Position numbers and translations under genes: made by a program. Positions 1,286-4,145 of a DNA stretch of 64,000 nt are shown here, piece after piece (the stretch's first letter is position 1; each line of letters begins with the position of its first letter). The stretch is from Escherichia coli (GTDB lineage Bacteria > Pseudomonadota > Gammaproteobacteria > Enterobacterales > Enterobacteriaceae): NCBI RefSeq assembly GCF_003018255.1, contig NZ_CP027440.1, one strand, 5' to 3'. The notes under the pieces were generated by a model that did not search any database, was not told the origin of the DNA, and saw only the letters and a list, made by a program, of their open reading frames with translations.

Positions 1286-1765
1286 TTACCACTTATCTAA
1301 TTCATTAAAGCCTTTTGCCTGTAGAGCTTCAACTAATGATAAGCCATCAGGAAATAGCAATTCCGGCGCAATTTCAAACAGTGGCCACAGCATAAAGCCG
1401 CGATTTTTCATATCGTAGTGCGGAACGGTCAGACGTTCGGTATTTATTACTTCATTACCAAACAGCATGATGTCGAGATCCAGCGTGCGCGGTCCCCAGC
1501 GTTCAGCTTTACGGACGCGACCTTGCTGCAATTCGATACGCTGTGTGTGATTGAGTAGCTCTTCAGGGGCAAGAGTGGTTTTCAGCGCGACGGCTGCATT
1601 TAAGTAATCGGGTTGATCTTGCGGCCCCAGCGGTGGGGTGCGGTAAAACGAAGAAACAGCAAGAATGCGGCTTTCTGGAATATCGCCTAATGCTTTCAGG
1701 GCAGCATTGACCTGCTCCAGCGGAGAGGCCAGATTGCTGCCGATGGCAATATACGCCACTGTCAT
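1286..1765 (-). CDS. folK: 2-amino-4-hydroxy-6-hydroxymethyldihydropteridine pyrophosphokinase (HPPK)
   Basis: ORF track 1286..1765 (-), 159 aa, [12 protein letters not shown]...; recognised HPPK sequence; start overlaps pcnB stop by 4 nt. Confidence 0.95.
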
Positions 1766-3159
1766 GCGGTACCCTCACGACGCGGTGCGCGTTTGCGTGG
1801 ACGACGAGTACGGCGACGCGGTGACGGTTCTTCATCCAGTTCGTTAAGCATCCCTTTTTGGTCTGGTGGCGCGGAAACCTGGAACTCACCCCACCATTTC
1901 ACCAGACGTTGCAGTTCAGCGTTACGCTCAACTTCGGCTCGTAAGGCCAACAGGTCGTATGCCGCACGGAACTTAGGATGCTCCAGCAGTTTCCAGGCGC
2001 GTTTACCCTGACGTCGGGACATACGCAACTGCAACTGCCAGATATCGCGGGTTAACGTCGTCAGACGTTTCGGGATCGCCAGTGAACGACAGGCTTCGTC
2101 CAGCACGTCGTTCATCGCCAGCGCGAAAGCGTCGTGATAGGTCAGGCCGCTTTCCTGGGCGATCTTCTGTGCCGTCTCCAGCAGTGGGTACCAGAACATG
2201 GCGGCAAACAGGAACGCCGGGTTCACGCGCATATCGTTATGGATACGCGTATCGGTATTCTTCAGCACCTGTTCAATGATCCGCTCCATCGGGCTGTCGC
2301 CATTTTCCGTGAAGTAGCGGGTAATGGTCGGGAACAGCGGCTGGAACAGGTGATATTCACACAGCAGCTTATAGGTTTCGTAACCGTAGCCCGCTTGCAG
2401 CAGTTTCAAAGATTCTTCAAACAGACGTGCCGGTGGAATATCGTTCAGCAGGGTAGCCAGGCGAGGGATCGGTTCTGCGGTTTCAGGACTGATACGCATA
2501 CCCAATTTGGCGGCAAAACGTACCGCGCGCAGCATCCGTACCGGATCTTCACGGTAGCGCGTTTCCGGGTTACCAATCAGACGGATAACGCCGTCCTTCA
2601 GATCCTTCATGCCGCCAACGTAATCACGGACGGTAAAATCTGCCACGCTGTAATACAGGCTGTTGATAGTGAAATCGCGGCGCTGGGCGTCTTCTTCGAT
2701 GGAGCCGAAAATGTTGTCGCGCAGCAACATGCCGTTTTGCCCGCGTTGGGAGGTCGTGCGGTCGCTGACGTTACCTTCGTGATGTCCACGGAAGGTCGCA
2801 ACTTCGATAATCTCCGGGCCAAACATCACATGAGCCAGACGGAAACGGCGACCCACCAGGCGGCAGTTACGGAACAGTTTACGTACCTGTTCAGGCGTGG
2901 CGTTAGTGGTTACGTCAAAATCTTTCGGCTTTTTGCCAAGTAACAGGTCGCGCACGCCACCGCCAACCAGCCAGGCTTCGTATCCCGCTTTATTGAGCCT
3001 GTACATTACCTTCAGGGCATTTTCACTGATATCTTTGCGGGAAATAGCATGCTGCTCACGCGGGATCACCGTCACCTGTGGACGGGCGACTGCCTGTTCA
3101 GCCTCGCTTTCCTCGCGGCTTAGCACCTTGCGGCAAAAATTAGCGACTCGGGTAAAAAT
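1762..3159 (-). CDS. pcnB: Poly(A) polymerase I
   Basis: ORF track 1762..3180 (-). Nucleotidyltransferase motifs ([10 protein letters not shown]...DFD). Start placed at the ATT codon 3157-3159 (IFTRVANF...), known to be the initiation codon in E. coli, giving 465 aa; the upstream TTG at 3178-3180 is the ORF-track alternative. Confidence 0.9.
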
Positions 3160-3218
3160 AGTACACCTCGGTAGTGTCAAACATCATTCAGGACAAAAAA
3201 ATAGCGGCTAATCATAGC

Positions 3219-4145
3219 TCAGCATGACGCATTTGAGAATGTTGAATTTACAATTGCCGACTCAGGCACGGCGGTAAGCCGCCAGTTTTTGACGGCTGAC
3301 TGAAGGATTTGCTCGACGCTGAAATCCTGCCAGTGTGCTTCTGCCTGCTGACCCAGAAATTGAAGTGCCGCGATTAGTACCGGGCGCGGATCGCCTTTCG
3401 GCAACGCAGGCGCATGATTCTGCTTGGAAAGTTTAGCGCCTTGTGTGTTAAGCGCCAGCGGTAAATGAATGTAATCTGGCACTTTCCAGCCAAAAAGCTG
3501 GTACAGCGAGATTTGCCGCACTGTCGGTTCGATCAAATCTGCCCCGCGGACAATTTCGCTCACGCCCTGGAAGTGATCATCCACCACCACCGCCAGGTTA
3601 TAGGCAAACAAACCATCACGGCGATGAATAATAAAATCTTCCCGCGCCAGTTTTTCGTTGGCGTGAATAATGCCGCGCAGCTGATCAGTAAATAGCGTGA
3701 CCGGATGCTGCTGGCGGATACGTACTGCGGCGTTGTCTGGTCCATGATGCAATTCCCGGCAATGACCGTCGTAAATACCGCCAATGCTTTGAATACGCGC
3801 GCGCGTGCAGGTGCAGTAATAACTTAGTCCTTGCTCATGTAACCAGGCGAGTGCTTCGCGATAGGCATCGTGACGTTGCGATTGCCAGAGAACGTCGCCG
3901 TCCCAGTGCAGACCGTAATGTTCCAGCTGGCGCAGGATAGTCTCTGCGGCACCGGGAACTTCACGAGGCGGGTCGATATCTTCAATGCGTACCAGCCAGC
4001 GACCTTGCCGGGCGCGAGCCTGTAAATAGCTGCCAAGCGCGGCAATCAGAGAGCCAAAATGAAGCTCGCCGGAAGGAGAGGGGGCAAAGCGGCCAATATA
4101 GTGTGTGTCTGTCATCTCGTTGAACAAAAAATAAGGCGGGAGCAT
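3219..4145 (-). CDS. gluQ: Glutamyl-queuosine tRNA(Asp) synthetase (truncated GluRS paralog)
   Basis: ORF track 3219..4145 (-), 308 aa; class I aaRS HIGH-type motif ([10 protein letters not shown]). Sits immediately downstream of dksA, as in E. coli. Confidence 0.88.

What the first reader, a model, noticed from the sequence alone, without database searches (positions are those of the whole stretch)
3139..3180. pcnB initiates at a non-canonical AUU codon
The ORF track opens pcnB at a TTG (3178-3180), but the codon corresponding to the known E. coli initiation site is ATT (3157-3159, ...T-I-F-TRVANF). AUU initiation is rare (infC is the other classic case) and keeps poly(A) polymerase I levels low. 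The sequence preserves that arrangement, with the folK stop overlapping at the 3' end.
Basis: partly seen in the sequence, partly recalled or inferred. Interest (0 to 1): 0.35.

Follow-up and report, generated by a model that had tools for sequence, protein, structure and literature searches.

The report
Known AUU start codon of pcnB
This E. coli window carries the poly(A) polymerase I gene pcnB, whose translation starts at the rare codon AUU rather than at the nearby UUG; this is a real, conserved feature that was published in 2002, so nothing here is new.

Summary
pcnB lies on the minus strand. The mechanical ORF opens at TTG (3180-3178). The in-frame ATT at 3159-3157 is where RefSeq/PGAP and the K-12 MG1655 annotation start the 465-aa protein.

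AUU initiation of pcnB was established by Binns & Masters (2002). Later papers repeat it as one of only two confirmed AUU starts in E. coli, the other being infC.

My comparative test agrees:
- In 80 Enterobacteriaceae species the ATT and a GAGGTG Shine-Dalgarno 4 nt upstream are invariant.
- The TTG is present in only 26 of 80 species.
- 43 of 80 have no in-frame ATG/GTG/TTG between the ATT and the nearest upstream in-frame stop.
- More distant homologues (55-67% identity) keep GAGG..ATT and the encoded N-terminal peptide.

One detail needs correcting. At the 3' end it is the folK start (ATG 1765-1763) that overlaps the pcnB stop (TGA 1764-1762), not a folK stop.

One side observation may be worth a look. 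The 40 nt from the ATT onward are the most conserved 40-nt window in a 4.3-kb, 73-species alignment, with frozen synonymous sites, which suggests constraint on the mRNA itself.

Verdict: already known, low interest.

The parts
1762..3159 (-). pcnB coding sequence as curated (465 aa plus stop), poly(A) polymerase I, starting at ATT
   Evidence: ORF. RefSeq/PGAP and MG1655 CDS are 1398 nt. PDB 3AQK/L/M/N match at E about 1e-284.
3157..3159 (-). ATT (AUU) initiation codon of pcnB
   Evidence: Sequence. It is the annotated start. Invariant in 80/80 Enterobacteriaceae species and kept in L083-L086. Literature.
3164..3169 (-). Shine-Dalgarno GAGGTG, 4 nt (TACT, 3160-3163) upstream of the ATT
   Evidence: Sequence. 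GAGGTG plus a 4-nt spacer is invariant in 80/80 species, while the spacer bases vary.
3178..3180 (-). In-frame upstream TTG where the mechanical ORF opens; not the start. It is part of a TTGACA hexamer (3175-3180).
   Evidence: Present at this position in only 26/80 species and replaced by other triplets elsewhere. No SD-like sequence in the 20 nt upstream.
3184..3186 (-). Nearest upstream in-frame stop (TGA), 9 codons before the ATT
   Evidence: Translation.
3120..3169 (-). Ultra-conserved translation-initiation region: SD through codon 13
   Evidence: +1..+40 is the most conserved 40-nt window of a 4.3-kb, 73-species alignment (mean column entropy 0.086 vs 0.57). Synonymous entropy of codons 1-10 is 0.145 bits vs a gene mean of 0.94. 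An overlapping 81-nt stretch (3125-3205) is identical in 5404/5424 E. coli genomes.
3211..3239 (-). Sigma-70 promoter-like site TTCTCA-17-TATGAT, probably the published pB promoter; the implied TSS near 3204 puts both TTG and ATT on the mRNA
   Evidence: 1 site found vs 0.2 expected. pB is described in PMC2939334. Equating this site with pB is my inference, because the figure is not held.
3124..3126 (-). In-frame GTG, codon 12; chosen as the start by some automatic gene calls; rival start
   Evidence: Sequence. Invariant GTG in 78/78 species. P0002 begins here.
3004..3006 (-). In-frame ATG (Met52) preceded by GAAGG; probably the ATG originally proposed by Liu & Parkinson 1989 and reachable from the internal sigma-S promoter pS1
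   Evidence: Sequence. Discussion and the PS1.rev primer in PMC2939334. The identification with Met52 is my inference.
1762..1765 (-). ATGA overlap: pcnB stop TGA (1764-1762) and folK start ATG (1765-1763)

Best explanation
pcnB (poly(A) polymerase I) is translated from the AUU codon at window 3159-3157 on the minus strand. A well-placed Shine-Dalgarno sequence, GAGGUG (3169-3164), positions the 30S subunit there. Initiator fMet-tRNA reads AUU with a third-position mismatch, so the protein starts Met-Phe-Thr-Arg-Val. Such complexes form poorly and IF3 discriminates against them, so translation is inefficient. That keeps PAP I, which is toxic when overproduced, at a few tens of molecules per cell. 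The upstream in-frame UUG that opens the mechanical ORF is an accident of the Escherichia/Citrobacter 5' UTR and is not the start. Shown here: the sequence, the annotation, and conservation of ATT and SD. Established in the literature: start-site mapping and translational limitation. Inferred by analogy with infC and with in-vitro AUU mRNAs: that IF3 is the discriminating factor for pcnB in vivo.
For: The sequence and frame are. Curated CDS starts at the ATT in PGAP and MG1655. Across 80 species of Enterobacteriaceae, ATT is 80/80 and GAGGTG plus a 4-nt spacer is 80/80. In 43/80 there is no in-frame ATG/GTG/TTG between the nearest upstream stop and the ATT, so the conserved peptide [10 protein letters not shown] can only be reached from the ATT. 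Other Ile codons in the gene vary freely (codon 32: ATC 42 / ATT 34; codon 39: ATT 63 / ATC 15), whereas codon 1 is ATT in 78/78. Homologues at 55-67% identity keep SD-ATT and the peptide, with conservative and synonymous changes: L083 IFSQIANFCRK, L084 IFTRVSNFYRH (NCBI annotates it from the ATT), L085 ILKRITQLYRS, L086 IITKVINLYHR. A 45%-identical homologue has a canonical ATG at the equivalent position, ATG ATT CGA AAA, so the N-terminus is homologous. Literature: AUU start and translational limitation; IF3 represses AUU mRNAs; PAP I is at 30-50 molecules per cell and toxic when raised.
Against: I could not read the primary paper, so the experimental details are second-hand. Two papers from one laboratory still write 'UUG translation start codon' for pcnB. 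ATT invariance alone is not specific to start function, because codons 2-9 are also nearly invariant at the nucleotide level. Several papers call the RBS 'poor', whereas the sequence shows a 6-nt anti-SD match at good spacing. No initiation-profiling data for pcnB turned up in the searchable library.
Confidence: 0.93

Rival explanations
1. Translation starts at the canonical in-frame UUG (3180-3178), giving a 472-aa protein that begins [12 protein letters not shown]; the ATT is then an ordinary internal isoleucine codon.
For: UUG is an accepted start codon and opens the mechanical ORF. The probable pB transcript start near 3204 includes it. Two papers refer to a 'UUG translation start codon' of pcnB.
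Against: There is no SD-like sequence in the 20 nt upstream of the TTG. The invariant GAGGTG would lie inside the coding sequence, at the right distance for the ATT instead. The TTG is present in only 26/80 species, and 43/80 have no upstream in-frame canonical start at all. The bases between the TTG position and the SD vary without any codon-like pattern (column entropy up to 1.2 bits at -20..-11). Curated annotation uses the ATT, and the literature maps the start to AUU.
Confidence: 0.04
2. The main product starts further downstream, at GTG codon 12 (3126-3124) or at Met52 (ATG 3006-3004, the start originally proposed in 1989). The conserved block around the ATT would then be untranslated regulatory sequence.
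For: Automatic gene calls pick GTG-12 (P0002) or its equivalent (L085). GTG-12 is invariant in 78/78 species. Met52 has a GAAGG 3 nt upstream. PMC2939334 reports an internal sigma-S promoter, pS1, and two anti-PAP I bands on westerns, and raises a possible shorter isoform.
Against: Codons 2-11 behave as coding sequence in more distant homologues: in frame, no indels, with conservative and synonymous changes. Distant homologues with canonical ATG starts begin at the equivalent position. GTG-12 has no usable SD spacing, since AAGG abuts it. pS1 is active only in stationary-phase cells lacking ppGpp. A minor shorter isoform is not excluded, but it would exist alongside the AUU start rather than replace it.
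Confidence: 0.03

Closest known systems
E. coli K-12 pcnB AUU start (Binns & Masters 2002, Mol Microbiol 44:1287; pmid 12068810)
   Same: This is the same gene and the same codon. The 221 nt of K-12 read across the start region (L002 2540-2760) match the window except for one base, in gluQ about 80 nt upstream of the ATT, so the TTG, SD, ATT and first 29 codons are identical. The CDS boundaries are the same.
   Different: Nothing of substance. The window comes from another E. coli strain (100% match to strain 104 and others).
infC (IF3) AUU start with IF3 autoregulation
   Same: A non-canonical AUU start that limits expression and is conserved phylogenetically. AUU mRNAs are repressed by IF3.
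   Different: infC forms a feedback loop because its own product discriminates against its codon. For pcnB no feedback is known, so AUU acts as a constitutive brake, possibly coupled to IF3 level. infC uses AUU or AUC in essentially all bacteria. The pcnB AUU is seen here in Enterobacteriaceae and some more distant homologues, but at least one distant homologue has ATG.
Enterococcus faecalis ebpA ATT start
   Same: A rare ATT start that attenuates expression of the protein.
   Different: An unrelated gene in an unrelated organism; only the principle is shared.

Membership tests
E. coli pcnB (poly(A) polymerase I) locus | Orthology and synteny: dksA-gluQ-pcnB-folK, with a protein identical to K-12 PAP I | tested here: met
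   100% DNA match to E. coli genomes, with pcnB, gluQRS and folK annotated under the match. The gene order is shown. PDB PAP I entries 3AQK-3AQN match at E about 1e-284.
AUU-initiated bacterial genes (infC / pcnB class) | In-frame AUU preceded by a Shine-Dalgarno sequence at functional spacing | tested here: met
   GAGGTG-TACT-ATT at 3169-3157 on the minus strand. The arrangement is invariant in 80/80 species.
AUU-initiated bacterial genes (infC / pcnB class) | No conserved canonical start codon that could account for the conserved N-terminal peptide | tested here: met
   43/80 species have no in-frame ATG/GTG/TTG upstream before a stop, and the TTG is present in only 26/80. Codons 2-11 are conserved as coding sequence in distant homologues.
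AUU-initiated bacterial genes (infC / pcnB class) | Experimental mapping of the start (N-terminal sequence or mutagenesis) and higher expression with AUG | not testable with these tools
   Reported by Binns & Masters 2002 according to its title and citing papers. The primary paper is not held.
AUU-initiated bacterial genes (infC / pcnB class) | Sensitivity of initiation to IF3 level | not testable with these tools
   General IF3 repression of AUU mRNAs has been shown in vitro. I found nothing specific to pcnB.

The most novel reading that the evidence does not exclude
The block from the Shine-Dalgarno sequence to about codon 10 of pcnB (window 3169-3120) may be a cis-regulatory RNA element in its own right. 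It is the most conserved 40-nt stretch of the whole dksA-gluQ-pcnB-folK locus across 73 species, and its synonymous sites are frozen, including an invariant rare CGA codon. It could be a context that AUU initiation requires, or a binding site for a trans-acting regulator of PAP I synthesis, rather than only the first codons of the protein.
Probability: 0.25. Interest if true: 0.35.

Novelty: already known. Interest (0 to 1): 0.1.

Why it matters
PAP I adds the poly(A) tails that mark bacterial RNAs for decay and that set ColE1 plasmid copy number. Too much of it polyadenylates tRNAs and kills the cell. The weak AUU start is part of how the cell keeps the enzyme scarce. For genome annotation the case is a useful reminder: ORF finders and gene callers that allow only ATG/GTG/TTG misplace this start. 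I saw calls at the upstream TTG, at GTG codon 12, and at unrelated upstream codons. Scientifically nothing new follows from finding it again in another E. coli strain.

Tried and rejected
1. SD-sequestering hairpin. ViennaRNA pairs CCGAGGUG with UACCCG.GU, leaving the AUU in a 9-nt loop, in E. coli and most Enterobacteriaceae. However, the 37-nt hairpin (-4.7 kcal/mol) is no more stable than shuffles (z = -0.15, 79/200 shuffles fold as well). The 106-nt leader is less structured than shuffles (z = +1.12). The pairing is lost in L083, L085 and L086. I rejected it as an explanation of the conserved block.

2. Known RNA family over the region. An Rfam scan of 2900-3400 at E<=1 found nothing.

3. 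Solved structures as evidence for the native N-terminus. The deposited chains start at residue 28-29 of the 465-aa protein, which I take to be a truncated construct, so they are uninformative.

4. Initiation-profiling or sRNA-interaction data for pcnB. Literature searches found nothing usable.

5. The primary paper (pmid 12068810) is not in the held library.

6. Promoter scan. Only one sigma-70-like site was found. I could not place the published p1, p2 and pS1 promoters because the figure is not held.

Full report
**What is in the sequence**

The window is E. coli chromosome. Window 1700-3300 is 100% identical to many complete E. coli genomes and matches 5424 of 5426 genomes, with pcnB, gluQRS and folK annotated under the match.

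pcnB lies on the minus strand. The mechanical ORF list gives 1762..3180, 472 aa, opening at TTG 3180-3178. Read on the minus strand, the start region is TTG ACA CTA CCG AGG TGT ACT ATT TTT ACC CGA GTC GCT AAT.

- The in-frame ATT is at 3159-3157, seven codons after the TTG.
- GAGGTG (3169-3164) lies four bases upstream of the ATT.
- An in-frame TGA stop (3186-3184) lies two codons before the TTG.

One remark in the finding is misworded. At the 3' end, the pcnB stop TGA (1764-1762) overlaps the folK start ATG (1765-1763), forming ATGA. It does not overlap a folK stop.

**What annotation and the literature say**

RefSeq/PGAP for a 100%-identical strain, and the curated K-12 MG1655 record (b0143, 157729..159126), both give a 1398-nt CDS of 465 aa that begins at this ATT.

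[quoted passage not shown] It is not held in the library. Papers I could read cite it for exactly this claim:

[quoted passage not shown] It describes the pB promoter and control at translation initiation.
- Hecht et al. state that only infC and pcnB have confirmed non-canonical starts in E. coli, both AUU.
- PMC5499595, PMC4447247, PMC9764084, PMC2830850 and PMC9410913 say the same.
- PMC3561954 adds that PAP I is present at about 30-50 molecules per cell and is toxic when raised. It also says that phylogenetic evidence in the 2002 paper suggested AUU starts in many Proteobacteria.
- IF3 discrimination against AUU-initiated mRNAs is documented.

So the feature, its rarity, its pairing with infC and its role in limiting expression are all already published.

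**Independent test by comparison**

One scan of the species-representative genome collection returned 80 Enterobacteriaceae loci. These included Escherichia, Citrobacter, Salmonella, Klebsiella, Raoultella, Enterobacter, Kluyvera, Kosakonia and Leclercia, at 86-100% protein identity.

- The codon aligned with the ATT is ATT in 80/80.
- GAGGTG followed by a 4-nt spacer is present in 80/80, while the spacer bases themselves vary.
- The TTG at -7 codons is present in only 26/80.
- In 43/80 species there is no in-frame ATG, GTG or TTG between the nearest upstream in-frame stop and the ATT. In those species the conserved N-terminal peptide cannot be made from a canonical upstream start.
- Other isoleucine codons in the same gene drift freely between ATT and ATC (codons 32 and 39), whereas codon 1 is ATT in 78/78 distinct sequences.

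A search of 1.84 billion representative proteins, followed by DNA look-ups, gave more distant homologues.

| Locus | Approx. identity | Start region | Encoded N-terminus |
|---|---|---|---|
| L083 | 67% | GAGGTG-TACC-ATT | IFSQIANFCRK |
| L084 | 62% | GAGGTG-TCCT-ATT | IFTRVSNFYRH (annotated by NCBI from the ATT) |
| L085 | 62% | GAGGTG-TATT-ATT | ILKRITQLYRS |
| L086 | 55% | GAGGAT-AGAGTT-ATT | IITKVINLYHR |
| L088 | 48% | GAGG...ATT ATT | – |
| L087 | 48% | AGGTG-AACACA-ATC | possibly an AUC start |
| L089 | 45% | canonical ATG ATT CGA AAA | – |

The differences in the 55-67% group are conservative or synonymous and stay in frame. Codons 2-11 are therefore translated, which argues against GTG codon 12 or Met52 as the main start. 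The canonical ATG in L089 sits at the homologous position, so the protein N-terminus is homologous even where the start codon is canonical.

**Rivals**

The upstream UUG is still called the start in two papers from one laboratory. But it has no SD upstream and is not conserved. It would also place the invariant SD inside the coding sequence.

GTG-12 and Met52 are picked by automatic gene callers or by the 1989 proposal. At most they could give a minor isoform from the internal sigma-S promoter pS1 under special conditions.

**Mechanism, with basis**

- Shown here: an SD with a 6-nt match to the anti-SD sits at good spacing before an invariant AUU.
- Shown here: the leader is AU-rich and not more structured than shuffled controls.
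- Shown here: a sigma-70-like promoter, TTCTCA-17-TATGAT at 3239-3211, would start the mRNA near 3204. That it is the published pB promoter is my inference.
- Established in the literature: initiation at AUU limits PAP I synthesis.
- Inferred: IF3 is the factor that discriminates against this start in vivo, by analogy with infC and with in-vitro AUU mRNAs.

**Side observation**

Nucleotide conservation around the start is extreme.

- Synonymous-site entropy for codons 1-10 is 0.145 bits against a gene-wide mean of 0.94. This is the lowest 10-codon window in the gene.
- In a MAFFT alignment of 73 whole loci of 4.3 kb, +1..+40 is the most conserved 40-nt window: mean column entropy 0.086 against 0.57, with 33/40 columns invariant. 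It is more conserved than the best windows in the upstream flank, which I take to be dksA coding sequence.
- Within E. coli, the 81 nt from 3205 to 3125 are identical in 5404 of 5424 genomes. The surrounding 1.6 kb is mostly 95-99% identical.

A predicted hairpin that would pair the SD with codons 2-5 is not more stable than shuffled sequence and is not kept in distant homologues. No Rfam family matches the region. The cause of this constraint is open. The most likely explanation is a strict context requirement for initiation at a weak codon. A regulator binding site is not excluded.

**Verdict**

Interest is low. The only residual novelty is the unexplained nucleotide-level constraint on the initiation region.

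Noticed in passing
window 3120-3169 (minus strand): The block from the SD to about codon 13 of pcnB is the most conserved 40-nt window in a 73-species, 4.3-kb alignment of the dksA-gluQ-pcnB-folK locus. Synonymous sites in codons 2-9 are frozen, including a rare CGA Arg codon in 78/78 sequences. A hairpin explanation was tested and not supported.
   Followed up: partly
window 3008-3047 (minus strand; pcnB codons ~38-51): There is a second zone of low synonymous variation, with an 11-nt invariant run (CGCAAAGATAT, window 3029-3039), just upstream of Met52. This is near where the published internal sigma-S promoter pS1 and the 1989 alternative start should lie.
   Followed up: no
L022 and L023 (Salmonella enterica subsp. 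diarizonae / arizonae), 21 nt upstream of locus position 1501: Where E. coli has the in-frame TTG, these Salmonella loci have an in-frame ATG (GTATGACACTACCGAGGTG), again without an SD. It could mislead gene callers or allow a low level of a 7-residue-longer protein.
   Followed up: no
window 3175-3180 (minus strand): The in-frame TTG is the first half of TTGACA, a perfect sigma-70 -35 hexamer. It is conserved in the Escherichia/Citrobacter group and several other genera, but in only about a third of the 80 loci. It may belong to one of the minor published pcnB promoters (p1/p2) rather than to any coding function.
   Followed up: no
literature (PMC3561954, PMC3378859, PMC9764084, PMC8496165): The published descriptions are inconsistent. 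Two papers call the pcnB start 'UUG', one of them also 'AUU' in the same text. Several repeat 'poor ribosome binding site', although the sequence has an invariant 6-nt anti-SD match (GAGGTG) 4 nt before the ATT.
   Followed up: partly
P0002, P0003, P0005, P0141; loci L083, L085, L086: Automatic gene calls misplace the pcnB start in public data. I saw calls at GTG codon 12, at an upstream in-frame TTG 13 codons before the ATT, and at an upstream ATG 27 codons before it in L086 (about 55-70 extra N-terminal residues relative to the E. coli alignment in P0003 and P0005). Only the NCBI record behind P0001 starts at the ATT.
   Followed up: partly
L087 positions ~596-625: A 48%-identical PcnB homologue has AGGTG-AACACA-ATC ATC ACA TTT ATT AAA AAG immediately after a stop codon. 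This suggests an AUC start. The called GTG start overlaps the SD-like AGGTG.
   Followed up: partly
window 3219-4145 (minus strand), gluQ / gluQRS: The start of the upstream gene differs between annotations. MG1655 gives 927 nt (308 aa, the ATG at 4145 found by the ORF listing), while PGAP gives 897 nt (298 aa) for the identical strain.
   Followed up: no
window 3073-3075 (minus strand; pcnB codon 29): Codon 29 is GTG (Val) in E. coli but ATG (Met) in 71 of 78 other Enterobacteriaceae sequences. This is probably just a Val/Met replacement in a variable linker.
   Followed up: no
window 1762-1765 (minus strand): The pcnB stop and the folK start overlap as ATGA, an arrangement typical of translational coupling. 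The finding's wording ('folK stop') is wrong.
   Followed up: yes
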